DNA from: Elusimicrobiota bacterium
Lineage (GTDB): Bacteria; Elusimicrobiota; Elusimicrobia; UBA1565; JACRDR01
Reading direction: 5' to 3'
DNA: 64,000 nt
Assembly (NCBI GenBank): GCA_041694815.1
Contig: JBGFSC010000047.1
Location: forward strand, 23,362-87,361
Position 1 is the stretch's first letter. Every line of letters starts with the position of its first letter. The position numbers and the translations under genes were made by a program. Below are positions 3,565-46,618 of the stretch, in pieces. Below the pieces are notes generated by a model. It was not told the origin of the DNA. It worked only from the letters and a program-made list of their open reading frames with translations, and did not search any database.

Positions 3565-3583
3565 AAGCTAAAATCGCCTTCTC

Positions 3584-7569: not shown

Positions 7570-8145
7570 GTGGCCGAGAACCAAAAATTCCAGCGCCGCA
7601 CCATCCTGGTCAAGAAGTCGCTGCAGCTTAAGTACATCGCGGTGATCTTCGCCAGCGTGGTGGTCGCGGCACTGCTCATCGGAGGGGACATCTACTACAC
7701 CATGACGCGGCTGCTGCTCTCCGAAAACCCCGCGCTCAACTCGATGATCGCGGAGGTCAACCGCGTGATCTTGCTCAAGCTCGCCTTGTACCTGGGCATC
7801 ATCTTCCTCGTTTCCCTGTTCGTCTCGCACCGCTTCGCCGGGCCGATCTACCGGTTCGAGAAGTCGGCCCAGTCGGTCGCCGCGGGAGACCTCACGCACC
7901 GCGTCAGCCTGCGCACGGGCGACGAACTCCTCGAGCTGCAGGAGGAGTTCAACGCGATGGTCGCCGGGCTCCAGGGCCAGATACAGAAGGACCGCACCCT
8001 CATCGCCCACCTAGGCTCGCGGATCGAGGAGGCGATCAAGAAGTTGCCCGACGGGGACGCCCTGCCCGCCGCCGTCTTCCTGCGCGAGGAGCTGCGCTCG
8101 CTCAAGACGGAGCTGCAACACATCACCAGCAGCTTCAAGGTTTAA
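7570..8145 (+). CDS. small membrane protein with HAMP domain
   Basis: one TM segment (IAVIFASVVVAALLIGG) followed by a HAMP-like amphipathic region and coiled coil; GTG start. Confidence 0.5.
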   Translation: MAENQKFQRRTILVKKSLQLKYIAVIFASVVVAALLIGGDIYYTMTRLLLSENPALNSMIAEVNRVILLKLALYLGIIFLVSLFVSHRFAGPIYRFEKSAQSVAAGDLTHRVSLRTGDELLELQEEFNAMVAGLQGQIQKDRTLIAHLGSRIEEAIKKLPDGDALPAAVFLREELRSLKTELQHITSSFKV

Positions 8146-8224
8146 GGGCTTGTGACACAATGCTCCTTGGCTCGCTCCAAAATCGCCTCGGCCAGATCGT
8201 CCATATTATTGTGTCACAAGCCCT
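8145..8224. repeat. 17-bp perfect inverted repeat (AGGGCTTGTGACACAAT / ATTGTGTCACAAGCCCT) with 46-nt spacer
   Basis: arms at 8145-8161 and 8208-8224 read directly; sits exactly in the gap between the HAMP gene stop and the TolC-like gene ATG at 8226. Confidence 0.8.
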
Positions 8225-8225
8225 A

Positions 8226-9479
8226 ATGGCCGCGGCATTCGCCCTTTTCTGGATCGCCGCGGCGGCGGCCCAGGGCCCCTCCCCACTGGAGCGCGGCTAC
8301 ACCCTTGAGGAAGCGCAGCGCTTAGCGCAGCTCAACAACGCGGCCCTGCTCTCCTCGGAGCAGGACATCGTGGTAGCCCAGCAGCGCGTCCAGGAGGCTC
8401 GCTTCCAGTTCCTTCCCGAGCTGGGCCTGCAGGCCAGCGGCACCCGGTACAATGCCCGCTACCCGTTCGCCCTCGCCCCGGAGTTCCGTTCCATCCTGCT
8501 ATTCCCCTCGGACATAGATAATATCTATTCGGGCCGCACCTACCTGCGCCAGTCGCTCTACGAAGGAGGGCGCGTGGTCAATCTCCTGCGCCTGGCCCAA
8601 ACGGCTCTCAAGCAGGCCCAGACGCAATACGACACCGTCAAGCTCGACATCGCCTTCAACACAAAGACGGTCTTCTACCGCCTCGTGCTCGCGCAGGATA
8701 TGCACGCCGCGTTGACCGAGCGCCTGCGCGACGCCGAGCGGCTGCTGCAGCAGCCGGGCTTCTCGGATTTCGAGCGCATCGAGGCCGAGGGGATGCTCGC
8801 CGAGCTCCGCGTGCGCGAGGCGGCGGCCGGCCGCGCCGTCGAGGCGGCGCGCCTCGACTTCCGCAGGGGCCTCAACCTCGAGCTCGACACGCCCGTGCGC
8901 GTGCTCGGCAGCCTCGAGACCAAGCCCGCCGCCGTGGACTTAGACAAGGCCGTCGTCTGGGCCACCGAGCTTCGCCCCGAGCTCCAAGCGGAAACCTACA
9001 AGGCCCAGATGGACGCGATCGCCGTCAACCTGGCCATGGGGCGGCGCAACCCCACCCTGGTGCTGGCCGGGGACTACGAGGTGACGGGGCAGCGCTTCCC
9101 CCTGAGGCAGAACAATTGGGACCTGACCCTGGGGCTGCGCATCCCGTTCTCCTACGACTTCTGGACCCAATTGCGGCAGAAGAAGGCCGAGCAGCGCCAG
9201 GGCGAGGTCAAGCGCGCCGAGCTGCACGACCGCGTGCGCATGGAGGTGCGCCAGGCCTACGACGATCTCCAATTCTGGCAGAACGAGTGGCCCCTGCGCG
9301 AACGCGAGTACAAGCGGATCGCGGGATTGTTTAAGGCCGCGCGCGGCAAGGGAGGGATGTCCCTGCTGCGGGCGCAGAACGCGGTGCTCGGCGTTCAAGA
9401 GCGCTATTTCATCGCCGTCGGCGAGCATCTGCTGGCCCGCGCCAGGCTCGAGCGCGCCATTGGCCGCCCCCTTCCCTAA
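8226..9479 (+). CDS. TolC-like outer membrane efflux protein (OEP family)
   Basis: signal peptide MAAAFALFWIAAAAAQG; OEP-type repeats. Start moved from the ORF-track 8160 to ATG 8226 because 8160-8225 lies inside the hairpin element. Confidence 0.65.
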   Translation: MAAAFALFWIAAAAAQGPSPLERGYTLEEAQRLAQLNNAALLSSEQDIVVAQQRVQEARFQFLPELGLQASGTRYNARYPFALAPEFRSILLFPSDIDNIYSGRTYLRQSLYEGGRVVNLLRLAQTALKQAQTQYDTVKLDIAFNTKTVFYRLVLAQDMHAALTERLRDAERLLQQPGFSDFERIEAEGMLAELRVREAAAGRAVEAARLDFRRGLNLELDTPVRVLGSLETKPAAVDLDKAVVWATELRPELQAETYKAQMDAIAVNLAMGRRNPTLVLAGDYEVTGQRFPLRQNNWDLTLGLRIPFSYDFWTQLRQKKAEQRQGEVKRAELHDRVRMEVRQAYDDLQFWQNEWPLREREYKRIAGLFKAARGKGGMSLLRAQNAVLGVQERYFIAVGEHLLARARLERAIGRPLP

Positions 9480-13048: not shown

Positions 13049-13052
13049 AGCC

Positions 13053-13334
13053 TCACCGATAAAAGCGCCTCTCGCGCCGCCGTTCGGCTTCTTCTAAAAG
13101 AAGGTCGGCGACCTCTTCGGAGAGCTCCATGACGTCTAGCTGCAACTCATAACCCAGGCCTTCGAAAAGTTTATCCCAGGTCGATAAACGACAATCGCAC
13201 CCGCGCTCGGCACGGTTGACCACCGATGGGTTGACGTCCGCTTCGTCGGCGAGCTGAAATTGCGAAATTCCCCGTTCTTCACGCATCTGCTTGAGCAGCG
13301 CTGCCATGCGGGACACGGCGCTTTCGGAACCCAT
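13053..13334 (-). CDS. XRE-family helix-turn-helix transcriptional regulator
   Basis: 93 aa; HTH_XRE signature GISQFQLADEADVNPSVVNRAERG. Confidence 0.7.
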   Translation of the reverse strand: MGSESAVSRMAALLKQMREERGISQFQLADEADVNPSVVNRAERGCDCRLSTWDKLFEGLGYELQLDVMELSEEVADLLLEEAERRRERRFYR

Positions 13335-13414
13335 GCCATATATACGATTAGCTCCAGAAAAAGTTCCGTAATTCGGGCTACTTTGACGCCGGGACGCGGA
13401 TTAGTCCCATTCTT

Positions 13415-13498
13415 GTTCTTTGCTTTTGAGCAATCGGGAACGGAATAGATGCCTTTATTCGCAGTTTTCTTGGCCCATTTTGCTCAAAAGCAAAGAAC
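13415..13498. repeat. 19-bp perfect inverted repeat (GTTCTTTGCTTTTGAGCAA / TTGCTCAAAAGCAAAGAAC) with 46-nt spacer
   Basis: arms 13415-13433 and 13480-13498 read directly; lies 80-165 bp upstream of the XRE regulator start in an AT-rich gap. Confidence 0.8.
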
Positions 13499-13583
13499 GA
13501 ATACATCAACAATCACCCACCCGTCTTTCCCAGCTACGTAAATGGTATACTTCGGGCCGCGCGAATTAAAGAATCAAAAGACA

Positions 13584-13673
13584 ATGACAGAAGCCCTGAT
13601 AAATTTAGCCGTGGGAATAATCTTGATTTTGGGTCTTGCCAAGTTTTCCGCTAAATTCCGAAAAAACAGATAA
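13584..13673 (+). CDS. small hydrophobic peptide (29 aa) MTEALINLAVGIILILGLAKFSAKFRKNR
   Basis: ATG..TAA ORF below the 60-aa cutoff of the ORF track; single predicted TM helix with basic C-terminus; TATACT -10-like box about 35 nt upstream; followed 27 nt downstream by an intrinsic terminator. Confidence 0.4.
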   Translation: MTEALINLAVGIILILGLAKFSAKFRKNR

Positions 13674-13699
13674 TTGACGGAGGGACGTTAAGCTGCCCA

Positions 13700-13730
13700 G
13701 GTCCCGGGAAACGGGGCCTCTTATTTTTGG
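13700..13730 (+). terminator. rho-independent terminator (GGUCCCG-GGAAA-CGGGGCC + UCUUAUUUUUGG)
   Basis: 7-bp GC stem (one G.U) with 5-nt loop followed by a U-run on the plus strand. On the minus strand there is no U-run, so it serves the plus-strand small ORF. Confidence 0.6.
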
Positions 13731-13733
13731 CTC

Positions 13734-16140: not shown

Positions 16141-18137
16141 TCCTTGATCGCCATTAGGGCGCAGGAATCGGACGCGTAAACGGGCTCCAGGAGCCCGGCG
16201 CGCTCAAGGCCCTCCCAATTCCTGATCCCCGCCGGGGAAAACGAGAAGATGCCGTAGCCAGAGAGGCGCCTCCCCTCCCGCGGGACGAGCAGCAGGTGGG
16301 TGAATTTTCCCTCGCTTTTGAGCAGCCCCGCGAGCTCCACGGGGCTCGATGAGCGGTCGGCCCATTCCACGAAGCGGTTGGGGGCCATGACGGTGGTGGC
16401 GACGTGATCCTGCTGGACGTAGTAACCCCGCTGCTCGCCCACGATGAGGATTCTATCATTTTTGCCCAAACGCTCCCTCGCCCGCAGCGCGCAAGGATAA
16501 TAGTCCAGGCGTCGCGAGAGGTACTCGTTGCGGCTCTCGGCGCCGGAGAGCAGCCGCCAGCTCGAGAGCACGGTGTGCACGTAGAAGAAAAAGCCCAGGT
16601 TGCAGAGGATAAACAAGGCGAGGGCCGCCGCCAGGAGGGTCTTGCCTCCGCGCTCAAAGGAGCGCCAGAGCCGGTGGAAGCCAGCCGCCGCCGGCAGGCT
16701 CAGCAGCGGCACCAGCACGGTCAAGAAGCGCAGCACCACGCCGGTCGAGAACCACACGGCGGCGTGGAAGGCGCAGTAGCCGAGCATGCGGCGCAGGCTG
16801 CGGTTGGCGAAGGCGGCCCATGCCGCCAGCGGCGTCAGCGCGAGGAGCAGCCCCCAGCCGAGATTGCCCAGCACATCGGCTCCACCGCCGAAACGCAGGT
16901 TTCCGGTGAAGGCCAGGAAGGGGAACGCGAGCAGGTCCGAGAAAAACTGGCCATGCCCGTGCCCGTAATCGGTCAGGGCCGAGAAATACCGCTTCGCGTT
17001 CTCGGGACCCCAACCGGTCCCACGATAAGGGAAATGCTGGTAGAGAAACGGAAAGAAGGGGTTGCCGAGGCTCAGCCAATTGCGGATGAGCCAGGGGCTG
17101 CCAACCACGGCGGCGCAAAGGCCGAAGCGCAGCGCCGGGCGCCAGGCGCGGCGGATCACAAGATATAGCCCAATGGCCGCTGGGCATATGCCGACGTAAT
17201 ACTTCGTCCCCACCCCGAGCCCGGCGAAAAGCGCCGAAAGCAGCAGCCAACCGTCGCGCGAACCCTCGATCTCCCTCCAGCGGCAAAAGCATAGGACGGA
17301 GGCCGTAACCCAGAGCATCGCCAGGGTCTCGACGTAGGTGATCGAAGACAGCAGCATTACCGCCGTGTGGGAGGCGGCGAGCACGCAGGCGAGCAAGGCG
17401 GCGTTGATCGGCATCTCGCGTTTGCCCATCTCGAACATCCACCATAAGGAAAGGGCGGTCGCCAGCCAGCTGAACATCTGCGCCAGGAGGTCGGAGCCGA
17501 GCATCAGGGCGAACATGAAGAGCATCTCGCCGTTCTGCGGGAAATGCCCGAAGAGCACCGGGGGTTGCGCCGTAAGCCCCCCATGGCGCAGGTAATAGGC
17601 CGGGAGCTCGAGATGGTAGACCAGCGAGTCGTACTGGTGCGGCGGCACCCAAGCCGTCCAAAAGGTCAGGCAGAGCAGGGCTGCCAAGAACGCCGTCCAC
17701 CCCGAGCGCCCTCGCAGCAGGCTGCGGTTGGCGGCCAAGGACAGCACGACGTCGCGCATCTCGGTGAAGCTCAATACCCAGAGTACGGAGAATAGGAGCA
17801 CGACGGCCACGGGCTTGAGCGCCCCGGTGGCGGCCAGCAGCAGCATGCCCTGGCTCAGTATGCCCAGGCCCAACGTGCAGCCGATGAGGGTCCTCTCGGA
17901 CTCGCTCATATGCGTCGCGACGTACATCTTCAGCGCCAGGCGCCCCATGCCGGTGCAGGTGAGCACGGTCAGCGCGAGCAGGACGGCGGCCGTCAGCCCC
18001 GCGGCGAGAGGCTGGGCGAAATGGCTCCAGCAGAGGTAGAGGGCCAGCCCCAGCAGCCCCAGCAGGTACGCCCACGCGGCCAGCGAGGGGCTGCCCCCCT
18101 CGCGTTCGACGCGCGCGCCTTCGCGGTGCTCAGCCAC
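16137..18137 (-). CDS. polytopic membrane protein, putative GT-C family glycosyltransferase (ArnT/PMT-like)
   Basis: 666 aa, >12 predicted TM helices, periplasmic-loop acidic/aromatic motif (YDSLVYHLE); ATGA-type overlap with neighbours. Confidence 0.4.
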
Positions 18138-18891
18138 CGTTCTTGGGGATGAACAGGGGGCTACGGATGAGCCCCATGCGATGGAGCCGGTACTGCAGCA
18201 TCACGCCCAGCGAGGAGAGCCCGTAGACCATGCTGCGCCGGAAATTGATCGAGGAGGCCTCGGGAAAATAGCGCGCGGCGACGGGGATGTCCCCGATGCG
18301 GAACTGCAGCGCCGCCGCCTGGTAGAGGAACTGCTGGTCGAAGACGAAATCGTCGGAATTTAGCTCCCAAGGGATGGTCTCGAGGACCTCGCGGGAATAG
18401 GCGCGCAAGCCGGAATGCCATTCTCCAAGGTTCTGCCCGGTCCAGGAATTCTCGAGCATCGTGAGCCCGCGGTTGGCCAGGTATTTCCACCACGGCATCC
18501 CGCCCATGAGCGCCTCGCGACGCGTGCGGATGCGGTTGCCCAGCACTACGTCGCAGACGTCGTTGGCGATGAGCCCCGTCATATGCGGTGTCAGGCGCGC
18601 GTCATATTGGTAGTCCGGATGGATCATCACGACAATGTCGGCGCCCCGGCGCAAGGCCTCCCGGTAGCAGGTCTTCTGGTTGCCGCCGTAGCCCTTGTTG
18701 CTCTCGTGCCGGATGGCCGTCAGCCCCAGGCGGCGCGCCAGCTCGAAAGTGCCATCCTTGGAGCAGTCGTCGACGAGGATGATCTCGGACACCGAGTCCT
18801 TGGGGATGTCGCGGACGGTCTTTTCGAGCGTCTGCTCCGCGTTGTAGGCGGGCATCACGACGATGGTGTTCACGAGTGCTGCGACCGACAT
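18130..18891 (-). CDS. GT2 glycosyltransferase (DPM1/ArnC-like polyprenyl-phosphate sugar synthase)
   Basis: [26 protein letters not shown] motifs. Start placed at MSVAALV (ATG 18891) rather than the ORF-track 18948. Confidence 0.7.
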
Positions 18892-19142
18892 ATAATGCCC
18901 GCTTTGGACGGGCGATTTTGAGGCGAGGCAAGGAGCGAGGAGCGCCACGTACCTGGAAGGTACGCAAGCGACGAGCGACGCAGCCGCAGCCCAAAAGCGA
19001 CCGAATACCGGCCTGAGCCCATCTTTGGCCGGCCGCGTCGTTGCGCCTCGCTCACAGGCCTACAGGCCTGCTCGCTCGGCGCGCCTAGCGGCCGTCTCAA
19101 AGCTAGGCTCCCAAAGCGAGCATTATATGTCGGTCGCAGCAC
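18876..19142. repeat. 32-bp inverted repeats (1 mismatch) flanking a 203-bp segment; invertible-promoter-like element or MITE
   Basis: left arm 18876-18907 (GTGCTGCGACCGACATATAATGCCCGCTTTGG) and right arm 19111-19142 are reverse complements except one C/T. Each arm carries a TATAAT box and an ATGTCGGTCGCAGC start segment. Confidence 0.75.
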
Positions 19143-19185
19143 AGTGCGAGTGTACATTATTTTATAGAATCAGGCGGCCCCCTCC

Positions 19186-20088
19186 ATGCCCCGAGACCTC
19201 GAATTCGTGCCCCCTGATAATTTGCTCGAGCATTTCCGCTCCTTCGGCAGGGGATTGGCCGTCACCCGCGGGGTCTACGAGCTGCGCAACCGGCACCAGG
19301 CCCAGGACCTGGCCTGGAACCACATGGACCAGATGCATCGCCCGCTGGTGCACAACACCTATCTGGAGGCCTCGCGCATCGCCCGCGGCAGGAATTTCGC
19401 CCTGTCATTGACGAAAATGACCCCCTTTTCTTTGCTCGTGCCGGTAATGGACGTGCAATTGGGCCCCGACTTATTCTACCAGTCCTTCACGCTGTTTAGC
19501 CTCGTGCACGTGCTCTGCCTCAACCGGATGGTTCCCGAGCCGGATGGGCGCTGCCTGCAGCGCACCGAGTGGTACATCACCTCGCATTGGCTGTTTAAGT
19601 TCCTGCACCCCCTCGTCCATCGCCGCTTCAGGAGGCTCGTCGAGTTCCAGAACGCCCAGGACATCCCGATCCGCGACCGGCGCCAGCAGCTGCGCGAGCG
19701 CGGCTATCGCTTCGGCAGCGACGACCCGGATTATCTGAGCTCCAACAGCCTGGAGCTGGCCGTGCGGCCGCCGCGGCTGGAGGGGACGCACCGCATCGAC
19801 GTGAGCGCGGTCGGCGCGGCGCTGGAGCAGAAAATGGCGGGGCCGATCGAGCTCCTGATCCGGCGCTCGGGCGGGACCGTCGAGGTCTGGCCCGGGGTCT
19901 GCCCGCATGAGGGAGGGCCGCTGCTCTGCGGCAAGCTGGAGGCCGGCCGGATCGAATGCCCTTGGCATGGATTGAATTTTTCCGGGGTTTCGCTTACCCC
20001 CTCCAAGCCCGACGGCCGGCTCGGCGAGCTGGCACTGACGCTCGAAGGCGAGTCGCTGCGCGTGCAGGCGGCATCATCAGCCGGGTGA
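19186..20088 (+). CDS. Rieske [2Fe-2S] domain protein with uncharacterised ~230-aa N-terminal domain
   Basis: C-terminal CPHEGGPLLCGKLEAGRIECPWHG (CxH-x16-CxxH); in-frame TAG at 19165 fixes the start at 19186; N-terminal domain contains an H-x4-H (NHMDQMH) patch. Confidence 0.6.
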   Translation: MPRDLEFVPPDNLLEHFRSFGRGLAVTRGVYELRNRHQAQDLAWNHMDQMHRPLVHNTYLEASRIARGRNFALSLTKMTPFSLLVPVMDVQLGPDLFYQSFTLFSLVHVLCLNRMVPEPDGRCLQRTEWYITSHWLFKFLHPLVHRRFRRLVEFQNAQDIPIRDRRQQLRERGYRFGSDDPDYLSSNSLELAVRPPRLEGTHRIDVSAVGAALEQKMAGPIELLIRRSGGTVEVWPGVCPHEGGPLLCGKLEAGRIECPWHGLNFSGVSLTPSKPDGRLGELALTLEGESLRVQAASSAG

Positions 20089-20121
20089 CGCCGGCCAAAG
20101 GCATTTGCTAACATTTTAGTA

Positions 20122-23788: not shown

Positions 23789-24546
23789 TGCGACTGCTCG
23801 TGACCGGCGCCGGCGGCGGGCTGGGCCGTTTTCTATTCGAGCGCCTGGGCGGCCTGGGGCTGACCCGGCAAAACGCCGCCTCCCTGCTGCCGCGGCTTAG
23901 GCGTTCGGGGGTCGGCACCATCCTCCACTGCGCGGCAAGCCCCGCGCGGCAGGCTCGGGCCAAGCCCTTGCGCGAGTTCTTGGATGACAACCTTTTCCTG
24001 ACCCGGCGCCTGCTCGAGCTGCCTCATCGCAAATTCGTCTATATCTCGACGGTGGACGTCTACCCCAAGAGCGGCTCCAGGCACGCGGAGTCGGATCCGA
24101 TACGCCCCGACAAGGTCGAGGGGCTCTATGCCATGACGAAATGGCTTTCGGAACGGCTGGTCCAAGACCGCGGCCGCGGCCCGCTCATCCTGCGCCCAAG
24201 CTCGCTGTTAGGCGAGCACGCGCGGCCGAACAGCCTTTCGCGCCTGCTCGATGGCGGGCTCGTCCGCCTAAGCGCCTCTGGCGATTCGCGCTTCAACTGC
24301 GTTCGACACGAGGACCTGCTCGAATTCCTGCGCATCGCGCTGCGCCGGGACCTCAGGGGGATATACAATCTGGCCTCCTCCTCGGATATTACGCTTCTCC
24401 GGACGGCTCGAAGCCTCGGCGCCAAGGCCATTTTCGGACGCCATCGTTATCGGGTCCCCCGAGTCGACAACCGCAAGGCCGCCGCGCTATGGCCGGCCTT
24501 CCAACTCGGCTCGCTCGAGACCCTGCGCCGGAGCAAAAAAGTATAA
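23785..24546 (+). CDS. short SDR-family NAD(P)-binding reductase
   Basis: VTGAGGGLG and YAMTKWLSE (YxxxK); shorter than typical epimerases. Confidence 0.45.
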   Translation: MMRLLVTGAGGGLGRFLFERLGGLGLTRQNAASLLPRLRRSGVGTILHCAASPARQARAKPLREFLDDNLFLTRRLLELPHRKFVYISTVDVYPKSGSRHAESDPIRPDKVEGLYAMTKWLSERLVQDRGRGPLILRPSSLLGEHARPNSLSRLLDGGLVRLSASGDSRFNCVRHEDLLEFLRIALRRDLRGIYNLASSSDITLLRTARSLGAKAIFGRHRYRVPRVDNRKAAALWPAFQLGSLETLRRSKKV

Positions 24547-24556
24547 TGAAAACGTC

Positions 24557-39727: not shown

Positions 39728-39753
39728 CGACTAATCGGTATAGTACCAAATCG

Positions 39754-41397: not shown

Positions 41398-42703
41398 GAA
41401 GACGTTATTATACAATTTGCCCGTGCAACGCCTGGCGGCGGCCGCCGCGCGCATCCCCGAGACGGCCTCTTTCGCCCTGGCCCTGATCCTGCGGCTGGCC
41501 TTCGCGGCGGCGTTGGGGCATCGCCTCTATCAGATCGACGAAGGCGCCTTCGACGCGGCCGCGAGAAGCTTGGCGGCCTCGGGAACCCTCGGCCCTACGC
41601 CGACGGTGCTCGCCCCGCTGCCCCCTCTTTTCTTCTCGCTTTTCTATCGGCTCGCCTCGACCCCCCTGGCCCCCCGCCTGGCCCAAGCCGCGCTCGGGGC
41701 GCTGTTCGTGCTCTTGCTGGGCCGGGCGGTCCGGGACATCTCCCGCTCCGAGGCGGCGGGGAGAATCGCCGCGGCGCTCGCCGCTATCTACCCCTTTTAC
41801 GTCTACTATTGCGGGATGCTCATGAGCGAGACCCTTTATCTTTTCTTCTCGGTCGCCGGGCTCTGGGCCTTCTGCCGCCTGCTGCGCGGCGGCGGGAGGA
41901 TGCTCGACGCCTTGGGGGCGGGAGGCGGGCTGGCGGCGGCTGCCCTCTGCCGCACCGAGGCTGCGCCGATCGCGGTACTCGTGTTCGCCGCGGCCGCGGG
42001 ATTCTGCGCGCGGCGCCTGCTTTCCCGCAGGCTTTGGGCCGCGGCGCTTTTCGCCTGGCTGCTGCCGCTGTCCTTATGGTGCGCCCGAAACCGCGCCGAA
42101 ACCGGGAGATTCACGCTCGATACGCACGGAGGCATCACGCTGCTGCACGGCACGCTGCTCTTCGAGCATAATGAGATCGATACCGAGGAAGCCATGCGGA
42201 TTTTTCGCCAAACACCCTTATACCAGGCGACGCGCGGACTGCCCGAGGCTGATCAGGACGCGGCCTTCCGGCGCGCGGCTTTCGAGCATATGCTCGAGAA
42301 CCCGCGCCGCACCCTGGGCCAGTGGGCACGCAAAAGCGTGAGTTTCTGGCGCTTCTACCCGCGCGTGGATAAGGCCTACGCCCAAAGCCCCACCAGCAAA
42401 CCGGACATGGGGCTGGGCCGCTGGGCCTTGGTGGCCGTCAGCCTACTTTTTGAGCCCTGGCTGATATTGCTGGGGGCCTTCGGCTTCTGGGCCCGCGGCC
42501 GGAAGGCGGAGTGGCTGCCTTTGTGGCTGTTCGTGCTGGCCACGATGGGCATACACGTGCTCAGCGTCAGTCAGATGCGTTACCGGCTGGCGGTGACACC
42601 CTGGTTGATGCTCGCCTGCGCTACCATGGCCACCAGCGCTCCCGGCGCGCGGGAGTCGCCAGGGCCGAGTGGAGCGCATCAAGAACGGAAGAGATCTTGG
42701 TGA
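41396..42703 (+). CDS. GT-C family membrane glycosyltransferase (ArnT-like)
   Basis: YQIDEGAFD loop motif; multiple TM helices; divergent from the previous gene with overlapping CATG start codons. Confidence 0.45.
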   Translation: MKTLLYNLPVQRLAAAAARIPETASFALALILRLAFAAALGHRLYQIDEGAFDAAARSLAASGTLGPTPTVLAPLPPLFFSLFYRLASTPLAPRLAQAALGALFVLLLGRAVRDISRSEAAGRIAAALAAIYPFYVYYCGMLMSETLYLFFSVAGLWAFCRLLRGGGRMLDALGAGGGLAAAALCRTEAAPIAVLVFAAAAGFCARRLLSRRLWAAALFAWLLPLSLWCARNRAETGRFTLDTHGGITLLHGTLLFEHNEIDTEEAMRIFRQTPLYQATRGLPEADQDAAFRRAAFEHMLENPRRTLGQWARKSVSFWRFYPRVDKAYAQSPTSKPDMGLGRWALVAVSLLFEPWLILLGAFGFWARGRKAEWLPLWLFVLATMGIHVLSVSQMRYRLAVTPWLMLACATMATSAPGARESPGPSGAHQERKRSW

Positions 42704-43619
42704 CATCCTCTCCCCGACATCCGTCCTGGGGACAGACCTTCGACACCATGCAATCGCTGTTGGCATAGCGGTAATCGGGCTCACCGCGCACAAGGACTCC
42801 TTCGATCTGCAGCGTCCTGGCGTTGAATACGGCGCTGCCTGAGTTGCCGTGATAGGTATCCAGATCGGTGACAAAATATCCCCGCGGGGAGGAGTCCCGC
42901 ACGGAGGCGCCTCCCGATACCTTGGTCGGGATGCCGGAAGGATGGCCGATGACGAGCAGGGGCGTCCCGTTTTCGATATGCCCGGTTTCGTTGACTCCGA
43001 GAGGCGCATGACCCTTCACGGGACGGTCCAAACGAACGAGCGCCCAATCGGACCCGTCCTCATAGATTCCCGTAAGATAATCGTACTCGTCCCTGCCGTA
43101 CTGGGGGAAACGGGTGCTGACCAGCCCGGCGCAGCCGTAGACCTCGCTCAACGGCACGGCCAGAGGGGCGTACCCCCTCTTTTTGATTTCGAAGCCGAAC
43201 ACGAATTTCGTGCGATAGCAGCTGTCTTGCGTCGGCACGCAATGGCCCGCCGTCAGCACCAGGTCCGGCCCGACCAGCGCGCCGGAGCAGAACGCCCCCG
43301 TCGGCTGGTCGAAAAACGGCTCCTCCGAGCATAGCCTGAATTCATGCCCGAAGACGTCCGTCTTAAGGAAAGCCCAAAAATCGCCCGGGATCATGGGACT
43401 CGAGAATCGGCGCGGGCGTCTCTGCGTCACGTTATCGGCGTTGAATAAGGCGACCGTCGAATCCGCCAGCCTTCGGATTTCTGGGTCGTCGATCTCGTAG
43501 AGGTCCTTGCGGTCATCCTGCCCGTAAATGACGGGCGGCGGCCTTTTCGGCTCCGAAAGCTCCTGCGCCGAAGCCCCGAAGTCCATCATAAACGCTAATG
43601 CCGCAAACAAGGTTCTCAT
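42621..43619 (-). CDS. secreted trypsin-like (S1B, V8/glutamyl-endopeptidase-like) serine protease, paralog 1
   Basis: signal peptide MRTLFAALAFMMDFGASA; catalytic LTAGHC (His), DWALVRLD (Asp), GNSGSAV (Ser). Confidence 0.7.
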   Translation of the reverse strand: MRTLFAALAFMMDFGASAQELSEPKRPPPVIYGQDDRKDLYEIDDPEIRRLADSTVALFNADNVTQRRPRRFSSPMIPGDFWAFLKTDVFGHEFRLCSEEPFFDQPTGAFCSGALVGPDLVLTAGHCVPTQDSCYRTKFVFGFEIKKRGYAPLAVPLSEVYGCAGLVSTRFPQYGRDEYDYLTGIYEDGSDWALVRLDRPVKGHAPLGVNETGHIENGTPLLVIGHPSGIPTKVSGGASVRDSSPRGYFVTDLDTYHGNSGSAVFNARTLQIEGVLVRGEPDYRYANSDCMVSKVCPQDGCRGEDVTKISSVLDALHSALATPARRERWWPW

Positions 43620-43620
43620 A

Positions 43621-44643
43621 TCAATCACACATGAGCGCCTGACCCGTCTCGCAATCGTGATGACAGCCATGGGCGAAATAGGTCTTCGAACCCTCCAGGC
43701 ACATACGCGGCAGGCCGAGCGCCTCGATGGCCCCCAGCCGAACCACCCCGATGCCAGTCCCGCCATCCGGGTCGTAGGCCTTGAAGGTCCAGCAGTCCCT
43801 GCCGGCGTCATACGCGTAATCGCCGTCGTAGCTAAACGAGATAATCCCCTCGATTAAACCCGTATTCCGGTTGAACACCCCGCTGCCCGAGTTTCCGTGA
43901 AAAGCATCGATCGCCGCCATGAAATGGTTTACTGGGCTGTCGTCTCGCACCGCTCCATTGTCGGCGATCTTGGTGGGCAGGCCCGAGGGATGGCCGATGA
44001 CGACGAGCGGCGTGCCGACCGGGATATGCGCGCTGACGTTCATGCCGATCGGCTCATGGCCTGCGACGGGCCGATCCAAGCGTATGAGCGCGTAATCCTT
44101 CTTGACGGCCCAGTCCATTTGGCGCTCGACCAGCTCGGCGCAATCGTACACCTCCTCGGTCGGCGCGGTCGAGGGGTATTCCCCTTCGCGCCTGACCGCG
44201 AAGCCGAATACGAATTTGGTGGCTGCGCATTCCTCCTGGTCGCGGACGCAATGGCCCGCGGTCAGGATCCGGTCCGGGGCGATCAAGAAACCCGAGCAGA
44301 ACGGCCCCAGGGGTTGGTCGTAGAAGCGCTCTCCCTGGCAAAGGGGGTGCCCTTCCCACAACGGAAGCTGATCGTCGGCCGGCAGGTCGGGGTTGAAAAC
44401 GGGCATGTAAAGCGTAGCCGCGCTGTAGAGCTCCGTCTTGAGCGCCCACCCACCCTCGATCGGCATCAATTCCTCGGCATCGAAAAGCCCCACCGTGGAG
44501 TCGGCCAAGCGCAGCAGCATGGGGTCACGGACTTCATATAGGTCCTTGCGATCGTCGACCCCGTAAATCACCTTGGGGGGCCTGGCTTGCGCCGAGGCGG
44601 CCAGAATCGCGAGCGCCCCGAGCGCTCCGAAAACCCTCACCAC
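43621..44643 (-). CDS. secreted S1B serine protease, paralog 2
   Basis: TAGHCV, DYALIRLD, GNSGSGV; GTG start at 44643 gives signal peptide MVRVFGALGALAILAASAQA. Confidence 0.65.
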   Translation of the reverse strand: MVRVFGALGALAILAASAQARPPKVIYGVDDRKDLYEVRDPMLLRLADSTVGLFDAEELMPIEGGWALKTELYSAATLYMPVFNPDLPADDQLPLWEGHPLCQGERFYDQPLGPFCSGFLIAPDRILTAGHCVRDQEECAATKFVFGFAVRREGEYPSTAPTEEVYDCAELVERQMDWAVKKDYALIRLDRPVAGHEPIGMNVSAHIPVGTPLVVIGHPSGLPTKIADNGAVRDDSPVNHFMAAIDAFHGNSGSGVFNRNTGLIEGIISFSYDGDYAYDAGRDCWTFKAYDPDGGTGIGVVRLGAIEALGLPRMCLEGSKTYFAHGCHHDCETGQALMCD

Positions 44644-45551
44644 GGCCCCCGATGCGGCCACGGCGGGCTCTGGGGCCATAAGGCGCTGACGGTGGAAGCC
44701 CGATTGACCCCGATACCCGAACCCTCCCCCGGCCCGTACACCTTCGCCGCGTAGCACTCGCGGTATTCGTCGAACTCGTAATCGTTGTCGTAGCTAAACG
44801 AGATGATACCCTCGATCCAACCCGTGTCGCGGTTGATGACGGGGCTGCCGGAATTCCCGTGGAAGGCGTCGACATCCGCCAAAAAATAGCTCGAGATCCC
44901 ATAGCCCGGCCGCGCGACGCGTACCGTCCCGTTCTCGGCCACCTTCGCCGGCAGGCCCGAGGGATGGCCGATGACCACCAGTCGAGCGTCGTCCGGTACC
45001 ACGCCGCCGAGATTAGTCGACAACGACTCACGACCTTGGACGCGCCGGTCCAAGCGCACCAGGGCCCAATCGGCCGATTGCACCTCGCTGAAGGCGTGGT
45101 CGATGAGCTCCGCGCAACGATACACCTCGGAGCTGGGGAACTCGGTGGGATACTCGCCCGCCCGCTTCACGTGGAAGCCGAAGACGAATCTCAGTCCGTC
45201 ACAGACCGTCTGGGAAGGAACACAATGCCCGGCCGTCAAAACCAGGGCGGGACCGACCAGCGCCCCGGAGCAATAGGAAGCCGAGGGTTGCTGGTAGAAA
45301 CGCTCCTTTTGGCATAGGAAGCGCGCGTCTCCGTAGCGAGTGGCGGTGAAGCCCCAAGCCCCGTCCGGCTTCTGGGTCAAGGCGTCCGCTTGGAAAAGGG
45401 CCACGGTCGAGTCCGCCCAGCGCAGGATGCGCGGGTCGCGGACCTGATACAAATCGAGCCGATCATCCTGTCCGTAAATGACAGGCGGCGGCCCCTTGGG
45501 CTCGGCCTCAAGCGGAGCGGCAATAAGGCCCAGCAGCCAAAGGGGGTTCAT
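44637..45551 (-). CDS. secreted S1B serine protease, paralog 3
   Basis: TAGHCV, DWALVRLD, GNSGSPV; start overlaps the paralog-4 stop (ATGA). Confidence 0.7.
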   Translation of the reverse strand: MNPLWLLGLIAAPLEAEPKGPPPVIYGQDDRLDLYQVRDPRILRWADSTVALFQADALTQKPDGAWGFTATRYGDARFLCQKERFYQQPSASYCSGALVGPALVLTAGHCVPSQTVCDGLRFVFGFHVKRAGEYPTEFPSSEVYRCAELIDHAFSEVQSADWALVRLDRRVQGRESLSTNLGGVVPDDARLVVIGHPSGLPAKVAENGTVRVARPGYGISSYFLADVDAFHGNSGSPVINRDTGWIEGIISFSYDNDYEFDEYRECYAAKVYGPGEGSGIGVNRASTVSALWPQSPPWPHRGPW

Positions 45552-46618
45552 CGGGGCCGCCCTCGCTGGAAAATCGGGTCGTCGGGGTCGGGTATATAGG
45601 GTGCGACAGCAGCGATCTTCGTGGCCCCTTCGCCGCTGCAGCCGTTTAGGGCACAGGTCTTGACCCGGGCGCAGCGGTCCTCGCCGTACGGGTAGTCATA
45701 ATCCGACTCACCGTCGACCAAAATTCCCTCCACCTCGAGCGTCCGGGCGTTGAGGACAGGGCTGCCGGAATTGCCGTGGAAGCTGTCGAGGGTGGTCGTG
45801 AAGCGGTTTAGGTCCTGCACGTCCCGTGCGACAGCGTTGCCGGCGATCTTGGTCGGCAGGCCAGCCGGATGGCCGATGATGAGTATGGGGGCTCCGGGTT
45901 CGATGTAACCCGTCCGGTTGATCCTCAGCGGCGCATGGTCCGGGACCGAGCGGTCCAGGCGGATCAGCGCCCAGTCGGGCAGGGATGCCGGCTGGGGCGG
46001 CGTGGGGTCGGGATACGGCTCTATCTTGCGGCGTGTCGGGCTGTAGGTCCCGCCGCCGAAGCCGCCGCCAGTGACCGGGCCTTCCACATAACCGCGCGCG
46101 ACGACGGAGCGGCAGGCGTAGACCTGGTCGCCCGGCGCGCCGCGGGGGTATTCCCCCTCCTTCTTAACGCTGAACCCGAATACGAAACGGATCATCTCGC
46201 AGGCCGCTTCGGAGGCGACGCAATGCCCCGCCGTCAGTACCAGGTCCGGGGCCACGAGAAAGCCGGAGCAGAAGGGACCCACCGGCTGATCGGCAAAGCG
46301 CTCCCCTTCGCAGAGGAAGGCGTAATCCCGATATACGCGCGTATCTAGGTCGAACCAGTCGACGTAACCTGGGTCCAGGCGCGGGGTGCGGTCATCGGCG
46401 GGCGCCTTCCAGCGGCGCACGTTATAGGTCCAAAAAAGCCCGACCGTCGAATCCGCCAGGCGGCGAAGCGCCGGGTCTTCTATTTCGTAAAGGTCTTTAC
46501 GATCGTCTTGCCCGTATATGGTCGGCCCGGGCCGGGACGGCGGGGCCCCGGTCGGGGCGCTATATAAAGGAGAGCCTGCCAATAAAAAGGCTAGCGCGCG
46601 CAGGATAGGGGGGGGCAC
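45548..46618 (-). CDS. secreted S1B serine protease, paralog 4
   Basis: TAGHCV, DWALIRLD, GNSGSPV; signal peptide MPPPILRALAFLLAGSPLYSA. Confidence 0.7.
   Translation of the reverse strand: MPPPILRALAFLLAGSPLYSAPTGAPPSRPGPTIYGQDDRKDLYEIEDPALRRLADSTVGLFWTYNVRRWKAPADDRTPRLDPGYVDWFDLDTRVYRDYAFLCEGERFADQPVGPFCSGFLVAPDLVLTAGHCVASEAACEMIRFVFGFSVKKEGEYPRGAPGDQVYACRSVVARGYVEGPVTGGGFGGGTYSPTRRKIEPYPDPTPPQPASLPDWALIRLDRSVPDHAPLRINRTGYIEPGAPILIIGHPAGLPTKIAGNAVARDVQDLNRFTTTLDSFHGNSGSPVLNARTLEVEGILVDGESDYDYPYGEDRCARVKTCALNGCSGEGATKIAAVAPYIPDPDDPIFQRGRPR

What the first reader, a model, noticed from the sequence alone, without database searches (positions are those of the whole stretch)
18876..19142. 32-bp inverted repeats flanking a 203-bp segment between divergent glycosylation genes: candidate invertible promoter (phase-variation switch) or MITE
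The arms differ by one base, and each contains a TATAAT box plus the sequence ATGTCGGTCGCAGC. The left arm supplies the actual start codon and first five codons (MSVAA) of the minus-strand GT2 gene. The right arm carries the same ATG in a dead-end frame upstream of the Rieske gene. IR pairs of 20-30 bp bracketing ~200-bp promoter segments upstream of polysaccharide loci are the signature of recombinase-driven invertible promoters (Bacteroides capsule loci, fimS). Here the element sits exactly between two divergent glycan operons, so inversion could toggle expression between them. No recombinase gene is present in the window, so one would have to act in trans.
Basis: partly seen in the sequence, partly recalled or inferred. 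Interest (0 to 1): 0.7.

Follow-up and report, generated by a model that had tools for sequence, protein, structure and literature searches.

The report
Small mobile inverted-repeat element, not a switch
The 267-bp inverted-repeat segment is one copy of a small, apparently undescribed mobile DNA repeat found scattered in many environmental bacterial genomes; it landed at the front of a glycosyltransferase gene and is most likely not a flip-flop promoter switch.

Summary
There are 32-nt arms (31/32 complementary) at 18876-18907 and 19111-19142, 203 nt apart, and this is the best inverted repeat in the window. The annotated ATG of the minus-strand GT2 gene lies inside the left arm.

The element belongs to a dispersed family of 267-376 bp foldback elements that I recovered from 13 other metagenome contigs. 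A profile built without the window matches 19142->18875 end to end (E 7.5e-51).

- Every member has 31-40 bp terminal inverted repeats, mostly flanked by TA (often CTA...TAG), and a conserved multi-hairpin core.
- Copies 97-98% identical sit at unrelated loci, and the similarity stops at the repeat ends.
- Many copies lie between convergent genes, next to unrelated genes, with no recombinase or transposase beside them.
- Assemblies break inside the element.
- An 80-bp derivative sits at 8145-8224 in the same window.

The best model is a non-autonomous TA-targeting transposon inserted at the 5' end of GT2. The TATAAT boxes are this copy's version of an AT-rich patch that all members carry in their arms.

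The family has no Rfam, plasmid, phage or literature match. Its core is more conserved than its arms and shows strong covariation, so an RNA or single-stranded DNA function remains open.

The parts
19111..19142 (-). 5' terminal inverted repeat of the element. The element reads on the minus strand, the strand on which the family profile matches best. It contains the AT-rich patch, here TATAAT at 19127-19122, pointing into the core.
18908..19110 (-). Conserved core of the element. It holds several hairpins, including 19055-19070 (CAGGCC/GGCCTG) and 18948-18964 (CGTACC/GGTACG), and invariant blocks such as AGGCGCG..GAGCGAG and GAGCGAGG.GCAACGA. This copy lacks the apical CCTCCCCC/GGGGG hairpin that most members have.
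18876..18907 (-). 3' terminal inverted repeat. Its outer 16 nt (18891-18876) supply the annotated ATG and codons MSVAA(L) of the GT2 gene.
19143..19155 (-). Possible outer extension of the 5' end (GTACACTCGCACT on the minus strand). TACACT is shared with the sequence just outside the repeat in L100/L102 and L103 (GATACACTA). The exact terminus of this copy is therefore uncertain by up to about 13 nt.
18870..18875 (-). 3' junction, TCGTGA on the minus strand. The TC corresponds to the TA that flanks most family members. GTG (18872-18870) is an alternative GT2 start that would give [11 protein letters not shown], the N-terminal length seen in relatives.
18133..18891 (-). GT2-family glycosyltransferase gene. 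It is the first gene of a conserved GT2-PMT-GT4-amine oxidase block. Its annotated 5' end lies in the element.
19143..19185 (.). The remaining 43-bp divergent intergenic region. TAGAAT (19165-19170, + strand) lies 15 nt before the Rieske ATG. TAAAAT/AATAAT (19164-19156, - strand) would have lain about 14-18 nt before the GT2 GTG if the element were removed.
   Evidence: the reconstruction is inference
19186..20088 (+). A 300-aa protein with a C-terminal Rieske domain, the first gene of the plus-strand glycan operon. It has its own -10 box and is not part of the element.
8145..8224 (+). 80-bp short derivative of the same family in the same genome. It has 17-nt perfect arms (AGGGCTTGTGACACAAT) around a 46-nt piece that matches the 3' module of the family, with TA on its left flank.
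   Evidence: 28/33 identities, 0/300 shuffles; E 6.7e-4

Best explanation
The 267-bp segment is one copy of a non-autonomous, foldback-type mobile repeat (a bacterial MITE). It has long terminal inverted repeats and a conserved multi-hairpin core.

The family most likely moves by cut-and-paste into TA dinucleotides, often within CTAG. It would use a transposase of the IS630/Tc1-mariner type that is encoded elsewhere and was not identified here.

In this genome a copy landed in a very short divergent promoter region, between the -10 box and the start codon of the GT2 gene. As a result:
- the annotated ATG and first five codons of GT2 are element sequence;
- the old GT2 promoter is displaced about 270 bp upstream;
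- any transcript crossing the element can fold into a 32-bp stem that includes that ATG.

Shown: family membership, discrete mobile-unit behaviour, TA/CTAG-flanked ends across the family, covarying stems, and the absence of a recombinase.

Inferred: the type of transposase, the pre-insertion sequence, and any effect on GT2 or Rieske expression.
For: 1. Relatives exist. A phmmer search with the 95-aa pseudo-ORF spanning the element found two metagenomic 'proteins'. Their DNA (L099, L100) shows homologous terminal repeats (GTGCTCCGACCGCATAATTACGG versus GTGCTGCGACCGACATATAATGC) and collinear conserved blocks.

2. A scan of JGI metagenomes gave 13 more loci. A profile built from 11 elements without the window matches window 19142->18875 over its full length at E 7.5e-51.

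3. It behaves as a discrete mobile unit. Three pairs of copies (L105/L106, L104/L110, L111/L112) are 97-98% identical over exactly 272-377 bp, with unrelated flanks and neighbouring genes.

4. It behaves as a repeat in assemblies. Contigs end inside it (L103, L108). Contigs also diverge at or inside it (L100 vs L102, L107 vs L113). L106 carries an extra fragment.

5. A second copy lies in the same 64 kb: an internally deleted 80-bp derivative that keeps both termini.

6. Ends: TA flanks 24 of 32 ends, and the other 8 differ from TA by one base. CTA...TAG occurs in most members, and the sequence beyond that is variable. TA duplication is the signature of IS630/Tc1-mariner elements (PMC2170065). 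It is also typical of bacterial MITEs (PMC2229807).

7. No ORF, and no conserved neighbour. Neighbours include SecG, a GH1 glycosidase, cobalamin adenosyltransferase, ThiF and radical SAM enzymes.

8. The AT-rich patch that reads TATAAT here is present in the arms of most members with different sequences.
Against: - No autonomous partner with the same ends was found, and the rest of the source genome could not be searched.
- In the window copy both flanking dinucleotides are degenerate (CT and TC, not TA), although the arms are 31/32 identical.
- TA and CTAG are palindromic, so target duplication cannot be told apart from a longer inverted repeat. No filled/empty site pair was available.
- The arms are much less conserved between members than the core (49% versus 76% mean identity). 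This is the reverse of what is usual for MITEs.
- Stems show extensive compensatory change, which suggests selection on a folded RNA or single-stranded DNA beyond what transposase binding alone explains.
- The exact arm 21-mer has no other match in 185,579 species-representative genomes or in JGI metagenomes.
Confidence: 0.75

Rival explanations
1. The element is mainly a gene for a structured non-coding RNA, or a single-stranded DNA structure, that happens to be mobile or horizontally spread. The conserved core is the functional part. The long terminal stem serves as a processing or stability stalk, for example an RNase III substrate that releases the core from read-through transcripts. Alternatively the arms carry its promoter.
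For: - The core is more conserved than the arms (76% versus 49%).
- 97 predicted pairs are 95.8% paired. 65 pairs show changes on both sides, against 37 +/- 3 in shuffles (0/500) and 14-22 in slid controls.
- Extra hairpins are inserted at fixed positions in some members. In L099/L100 these are capped by cUUCGg and cUACGg loops on this strand.
- The profile matches one strand far better than the other.
- A -10-like hexamer often lies 0-8 nt before the start of the core in the 5' arm (read).
Against: - There is no conserved gene neighbourhood, and orientation shows no bias relative to tandem neighbours (3 co-directional, 2 opposite).
- Near-identical copies sit at unrelated loci, and a deletion derivative retains both ends.
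- Pairs are almost exclusively Watson-Crick. In pairs common to both strands there are 16 G-U against 8 A-C among about 1060 cells, and both strands fold equally well (-133.6 versus -132.8 kcal/mol). This is unlike typical functional RNAs and does not identify a transcribed strand.
- No Rfam family matches.
Confidence: 0.15
2. It is an invertible promoter (inverton). A site-specific recombinase encoded elsewhere flips 18908-19110 between the 32-bp repeats and toggles expression between the GT2 operon and the Rieske-led glycan operon.
For: The geometry (repeats of about 30 bp around a segment of about 200 bp, between two divergent glycan operons) resembles Bacteroides capsule switches and fimS. 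A globally acting invertase can serve dispersed sites, as known for Bacteroides Mpi (from established knowledge).
Against: - There is no promoter-like site inside the segment. The only consensus-like promoter uses the arm's TATAAT together with flanking GT2 sequence.
- Because the arms are nearly identical, inversion would leave both -10 boxes unchanged.
- Homologous elements lie mostly at gene 3' ends or between convergent genes, not upstream of operons.
- Arm sequences differ between the two copies in this same genome, which is awkward for a single invertase.
- No recombinase is present in the window or beside any copy.
- Loci sampled twice show one orientation.
Confidence: 0.04
3. It is a locus-specific feature. 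Either it is a local inverted duplication of the GT2 promoter and 5' end, made when the 21-kb glycan cluster was inserted, or it is a pair of operator sites for a looping regulator.
For: The element sits exactly at a synteny breakpoint. In relative L081 the PMT_2 gene is followed directly by GT2. In the window about 20.8 kb of glycan genes (19186-39727) lie between them.
Against: The whole 267 bp, arms and core, is homologous to elements at unrelated loci in other metagenomes. It was therefore not generated from local sequence. The GT2 N-termini of relatives (MAAKTIVV, MKIIAV) do not share the arm-encoded MSVAAL.
Confidence: 0.02

Closest known systems
Correia elements (NEMIS/CREE) of Neisseria
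   Same: - Small, non-coding and dispersed, with long terminal inverted repeats of about 24-26 bp and TA at the termini.
- The repeats carry promoter-like -10 sequences.
- Insertions occur close to gene starts, including fusions to ORFs.
- Short and long variants differ by an internal block.
- Transcripts fold into long hairpins that RNase III can cut (PMC2229807).
- Both start TAGTG after the flanking T/TA (the Correia sequence is from memory).
   Different: - Our family is longer (267-376 bp against 105-155 bp) and GC-rich.
- It was recovered from environmental metagenome contigs whose GC content ranges from 49 to 64%, which points to varied hosts.
- It has a multi-hairpin core that is more conserved than its repeats.
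- No sequence similarity to Correia elements was tested or claimed.
RUP of Streptococcus pneumoniae and other IS630-derived MITEs; the IS630/ISY100/Tc1-mariner superfamily
   Same: Insertion at TA with TA at both ends. IS630 itself is reported to target CTAG (from memory). Mobilisation in trans by a transposase that recognises the terminal repeats (PMC2229807, PMC2170065).
   Different: No IS630-family element with matching ends was found, so the link rests on the TA/CTAG ends alone. The terminal repeats here (31-40 bp) are longer than those of ISY100 (24 bp) or RUP (9 bp).
ERIC/IRU and Bacillus bcr1-type repeats (structured interspersed repeats)
   Same: Imperfect palindromes conserved across species, with variants carrying insertions at fixed internal sites, and predicted stable RNA structures with compensatory changes (PMC2229807 for ERIC; bcr1 from memory).
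   Different: Those repeats are shorter (about 127-155 bp) and have short or no terminal repeats. They are confined to one bacterial family or group, whereas the contigs carrying our family span 49-64% GC.
Invertible promoters (Bacteroides capsule promoters, E. coli fimS)
   Same: A pair of inverted repeats bracketing a segment of about 200-300 bp next to surface-glycan genes.
   Different: - Those segments contain an outward-reading promoter and are served by a dedicated or global recombinase.
- They are found in both orientations in populations.
- None of these was seen here, and most homologues are not upstream of operons.

Membership tests
Bacterial MITE (non-autonomous inverted-repeat transposable element) | Terminal inverted repeats at both ends | tested here: met
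   31-40 bp repeats in all 12 complete members, and 32 bp (31/32) in the window copy.
Bacterial MITE (non-autonomous inverted-repeat transposable element) | Small size and no coding capacity | tested here: met
   Members are 267-376 bp. The only ORFs are frame-accidental, indels between members are not multiples of three, and substitutions follow base pairing rather than codons.
Bacterial MITE (non-autonomous inverted-repeat transposable element) | Several copies dispersed at unrelated sites, with similarity ending at the element ends | tested here: met
   Three pairs are 97-98% identical over the element only. L105 and L106, from one metagenome (Ga0118677), are near-identical copies with unrelated flanks. 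There are two copies in this window, one of them truncated. The copy number in the source genome could not be counted.
Bacterial MITE (non-autonomous inverted-repeat transposable element) | Target-site duplication shown by filled versus empty sites | tested here: inconclusive
   TA flanks 24/32 ends and CTA..TAG is common. But TA is palindromic, no empty site was available, and the window copy has CT/TC.
Bacterial MITE (non-autonomous inverted-repeat transposable element) | A related autonomous element with the same ends and a transposase | not testable with these tools
   There is no transposase in the window or in 13 loci.
Invertible promoter / inverton | Promoter inside the invertible segment, reading out through one repeat | tested here: not met
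   No promoter-like site lies in 18908-19110. The segment is 66-68% GC, and the -10 boxes lie in the arms and face inward.
Invertible promoter / inverton | Site-specific recombinase, adjacent or in the genome | tested here: inconclusive
   None in the 64-kb window or beside any homologue. The rest of the genome was not available.
Invertible promoter / inverton | Both orientations present in a population | not testable with these tools
   No reads were available. The only re-sampled loci (L100/L102, L107/L113) share one orientation.
Any Rfam 15 RNA family | Match to a curated covariance model | tested here: not met
   No hit at E<=1 in window 18000-20000 or in seven loci carrying family members. 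The only hit was an unrelated tRNA.
REP/BIME elements (RAYT-mobilised) | Short (20-40 nt) palindromes with a conserved 5' GTAG-type tetranucleotide, clustered, with a RAYT gene in the genome | not tested
   Considered only because GTAG occurs in the CTAGTGTAGTG termini. The size and architecture (about 270 bp, long terminal repeats, single units) do not resemble REPs. No Y1 transposase was seen in the window.

The most novel reading that the evidence does not exclude
The family is not just transposon debris. It would be a mobile carrier of a conserved structured nucleic acid, either a non-coding RNA transcribed from the -10-like patch in the arm or a single-stranded DNA fold used during transposition. 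Its core has been kept by selection in metagenomic hosts of differing GC content, while the terminal stems evolve freely under a pairing constraint. That would make it an undescribed class of mobile structured-RNA element in environmental bacteria, and the copy at GT2 could modulate expression of a conserved glycosylation operon.
Probability: 0.2. Interest if true: 0.7.

Novelty: new member of a known kind. Interest (0 to 1): 0.4.

Why it matters
For this locus, the result removes a tempting but unsupported phase-variation story. It shows that the annotated start of a conserved glycosyltransferase gene is transposon-derived, so both the start codon and the promoter assignment need care.

More broadly, it brings to light a repeat family with no match in Rfam 15, plasmid or phage records, or the searchable literature. 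The family occurs in Elusimicrobia-like and other environmental genomes. It has strikingly strong structural covariation and a core that is better conserved than its ends.

Such elements break metagenome assemblies, create spurious ORFs (two are in public protein databases), and can rewire the expression of neighbouring genes. If the core proves functional, the family would be a useful new case of a mobile structured RNA or DNA element.

Tried and rejected
- Exact searches with a 21-mer of the arm found nothing in 185,579 representative genomes or in JGI metagenomes. A 16-mer in viral contigs gave 15 chance matches with no extension.
- Exact-sequence look-ups of the GT2 and Rieske proteins found no retrievable contig. 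The source is an NCBI contig of 148,544 bp that could not be fetched.
- Close relatives for a DNA-level comparison of the intergenic region do not exist in the databases. The best GT2 relative is 86% identical and the best Rieske relative 49%. The GT2 relatives lack the Rieske neighbour.
- Rfam searches were negative. blastn against plasmids and phages was negative. A 32-base degenerate core pattern found nothing in viral contigs.
- Literature searches for terminal and core sequence strings returned only chance primer matches or nothing.
- A strand test by G-U versus A-C counts was inconclusive once restricted to pairs predicted on both strands.
- An apparent 5-bp direct repeat (AGTGC) at the window junctions was rejected as a target duplication. 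It overlaps the repeat itself and is not seen in other members.
- The idea that the two internal hairpins are copies of each other was rejected.
- The 84-bp inverted repeat at 13415-13498 was tested against the family and is unrelated.

Full report
**1. The observation**

Reading the sequence and running the repeat finder confirm two 32-nt arms, 18876-18907 and 19111-19142. They are complementary at 31 of 32 positions and 203 nt apart. This is the longest and best inverted repeat in the whole window. A 23-mer of the arm occurs only at these two places, with none expected by chance.

The arms each contain TATAAT, but both boxes face inward: 18891-18896 on the + strand and 19127-19122 on the - strand.

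With this start the product begins MSVAAL and equals a 253-aa NCBI protein model. An alternative GTG at 18872 would give [11 protein letters not shown], the N-terminal length seen in many relatives.

The plus-strand neighbour is a 300-aa protein with a C-terminal Rieske domain. It heads an operon of epimerases, dehydratases, an aminotransferase and glycosyltransferases. No recombinase or transposase domain was found in about 56 ORFs covering most of the window.

**2. Context**

The closest GT2 relatives are high-GC Elusimicrobia MAGs at about 70-86% amino-acid identity. They keep the GT2-PMT-GT4-amine oxidase order but lack the Rieske neighbour.

In relative L081 a PMT_2 gene is followed directly by GT2. 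In the window the homologues of these two genes are separated by about 20.8 kb of glycan genes (19186-39727). The element therefore sits at a synteny breakpoint.

In this genome and its relatives a -10-like box lies 6-15 nt before many start codons and there is no Shine-Dalgarno sequence. This points to leaderless or very short-leader mRNAs. The Rieske gene has such a box (TAGAAT, 19165-19170). GT2 has none directly upstream on its own strand.

**3. The turn: the element is not unique**

Exact searches with the arm found nothing. I then translated the frame-accidental 95-codon ORF that spans the element and searched 1.84 billion representative proteins. Two weak hits came back (E about 1e-4).

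Their contigs (L099, L100) carry homologous DNA elements. The terminal repeats are GTGCTCCGACCGCATAATTACGG and GTGCTTCGACCGGATAATTATGG..., against GTGCTGCGACCGACATATAATGC in the window. The internal blocks are collinear, and two internal hairpins keep their pairing through different sequences.

A metagenome scan seeded with the three pseudo-peptides returned 13 further loci. A profile built from 11 elements, excluding the window, matches window 19142->18875 end to end at E 7.5e-51 on the minus strand, against 8.5e-14 on the plus strand. It also picks up 8160-8211 at E 6.7e-4.

That second site is an 80-bp element (8145-8224) with 17-nt perfect arms around a 46-nt piece of the family's 3' module. 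It had been found independently as the only significant similarity to the 267-bp element inside the window (28/33 identities, 0 of 300 shuffles).

**4. Anatomy of the family (alignment A4, 12 complete members, 267-376 bp)**

- Every member has 31-40 bp terminal inverted repeats.
- The arms differ greatly between members: mean pairwise identity is 49%, against 76% for the core. Within each member the arms stay complementary.
- The arms share an outer motif (CTAGTGTAGTG..., TAGTGCT... or CTACTGAG...) and an AT-rich patch. That patch happens to read TATAAT in the window copy.
- The core holds invariant blocks (AGGCGCG..GAGCGAG, GAGCGAGGAGCAACGA, TCGCTT, CGCTC) and several hairpins. Some members carry extra hairpins at fixed positions.
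- RNAalifold predicts 97 pairs. Of the cells, 95.8% are paired, and 65 pairs show changes on both sides. The controls give 37 +/- 3 in shuffles (0/500 reach the observed value) and 14-22 when partners are slid.
- The pairs are almost all Watson-Crick.
- Both strands fold equally well. In pairs common to both strands, G-U outnumbers A-C only 16 to 8. The data therefore do not say whether the fold matters in RNA or in single-stranded DNA, or on which strand.

**5. Evidence for mobility**

- Three pairs of copies (L105/L106, L104/L110, L111/L112) are 97-98% identical over exactly the element (272-377 bp), while flanks and neighbouring genes are unrelated.
- Contigs end inside the element (L103, L108).
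- Two pairs of contigs share the 5' flank and then diverge at or inside the element (L100/L102, L107/L113). This is what recombination between copies, or assembly confusion at a repeat, would produce.
- L106 holds an extra 58-nt fragment 1.7 kb away from its full copy.
- Neighbours are unrelated housekeeping genes: SecG, a GH1 glycosidase, cobalamin adenosyltransferase, a MoCF domain protein, ThiF and radical SAM enzymes. Several copies lie between convergent genes, and none is beside a transposase or recombinase.
- The ends are flanked by TA at 24 of 32 termini, and the other 8 are one base away from TA. Usually the pattern is CTA...TAG, with variable sequence beyond.
- TA duplication is the hallmark of the IS630/Tc1-mariner superfamily (PMC2170065). 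TA termini, long stem-loops, promoter-like sequences in the repeats, ORF fusions and RNase III processing are recurrent properties of bacterial MITEs such as Correia elements and RUP (PMC2229807).

**6. Most likely mechanism at this locus**

A non-autonomous TA-targeting element inserted into a divergent promoter region of about 45 bp. Removing it would join ...TATAAAATAATGTACACTCGCAC(TA)GTGAACACC... on the minus strand. That would put a -10-like TAAAAT/AATAAT about 14-18 nt before a GTG start, which resembles the arrangement of other genes here. This reconstruction is inference.

The window copy's junctions are degenerate (CT and TC). The shared TACACT just outside the 5' arm in the window, L100 and L103 leaves its exact termini uncertain by up to about 13 nt.

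Consequences that follow from the sequence:
- the annotated ATG and codons 1-5 of GT2 are element-derived;
- the former promoter is about 270 bp away;
- a transcript crossing the element can form a 32-bp stem containing that ATG (fold z-score about -9).

The left arm's TATAAT together with a TTCACG in the GT2 coding sequence scores 10/12 as a sigma-70-type promoter reading toward the Rieske gene. Whether these features raise, lower or do not affect expression is unknown.

**7. Rivals**

The invertible-promoter reading fails on the features that could be tested:
- there is no internal promoter;
- near-identical arms mean that inversion would not move the -10 boxes;
- the homologues are mostly not upstream of operons;
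- arm sequences differ between the two copies in this genome;
- no recombinase was found.

Inversion as such cannot be excluded without reads.

A purely local origin (inverted duplication, or operator pair) is contradicted by homology of the whole 267 bp to elements elsewhere.

The serious alternative, or complement, is that the conserved core is a functional RNA or single-stranded DNA structure carried by a mobile shell. The conservation pattern and covariation favour this. The lack of wobble pairs, of strand asymmetry, of synteny and of any Rfam match leaves it open.

**8. Novelty and score**

MITE-like repeats are a well-known kind, so the finding itself is a new member of that kind rather than a new mechanism. 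The phase-variation idea that made it attractive is not supported.

The family does appear to be undescribed. It has no Rfam 15 match, no plasmid or phage similarity, no viral contig match, and no hit in searchable papers for its motifs. It also has unusual features: a core more conserved than the ends, and very strong covariation.

I therefore score interest at 0.4. There is about a one-in-five chance that it is a mobile structured RNA or DNA element of real interest.

Noticed in passing
window 8145-8224: 80-bp element with 17-nt perfect inverted arms (AGGGCTTGTGACACAAT), lying between the stop of a HAMP-domain gene and an outer-membrane efflux (OEP) gene. It is a short derivative of the same family. 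The first ATG of the ORF (8160) lies inside it, so the real OEP start is probably the ATG at 8226.
   Followed up: yes
window 13415-13498 (and 13049-13733): 84-bp inverted repeat with 19-nt perfect arms and a 46-nt spacer. It lies inside a 685-bp low-GC intergenic stretch next to a 93-aa ORF (13053-13334, minus strand) that looks like an XRE-type helix-turn-helix protein. The profile search found no relation to the family. It may be another small mobile or regulatory element.
   Followed up: partly
window-wide, e.g. 3565-3583, 20106-20121, 24538-24556, 39728-39748, 53286, 58137; also L001-L017, L081-L083: A -10-like box (TAnnAT, often TGnTAnnAT) lies 6-15 nt upstream of many start codons, with no Shine-Dalgarno sequence. 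This suggests that leaderless or very short-leader mRNAs are the norm in this Elusimicrobia-like lineage.
   Followed up: partly
window 19186-39727 versus L081 3263-5777: About 20.8 kb of glycan-biosynthesis genes separates the PMT_2 and GT2 genes that are adjacent in a relative. They include the Rieske protein, GT2s, epimerases, a transketolase-like protein, DegT aminotransferase, GHMP kinase, nucleotidyltransferase, a GT1-methyltransferase fusion, carbamoyltransferase and a radical SAM/SPASM enzyme. The Rieske protein is rare: only 45 homologues were found, the best at 49% identity.
   Followed up: partly
window 42621-46618: Four tandem paralogous trypsin-like serine peptidase genes, which show up as the largest direct-repeat families in the window.
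   Followed up: no
L100 versus L102; L107 versus L113: Contigs from different samples share the 5' flank and the element. They then continue differently from exactly the 3' terminus (L100/L102) or from inside the element (L107/L113, whose 3' half is L109-like). This indicates recombination between copies or assembly chimeras at the repeat.
   Followed up: partly
public protein databases (P0166, P0167): Two 'proteins' in public collections (89 and 161 aa) are translations of copies of this non-coding element, that is, spurious gene calls.
   Followed up: yes
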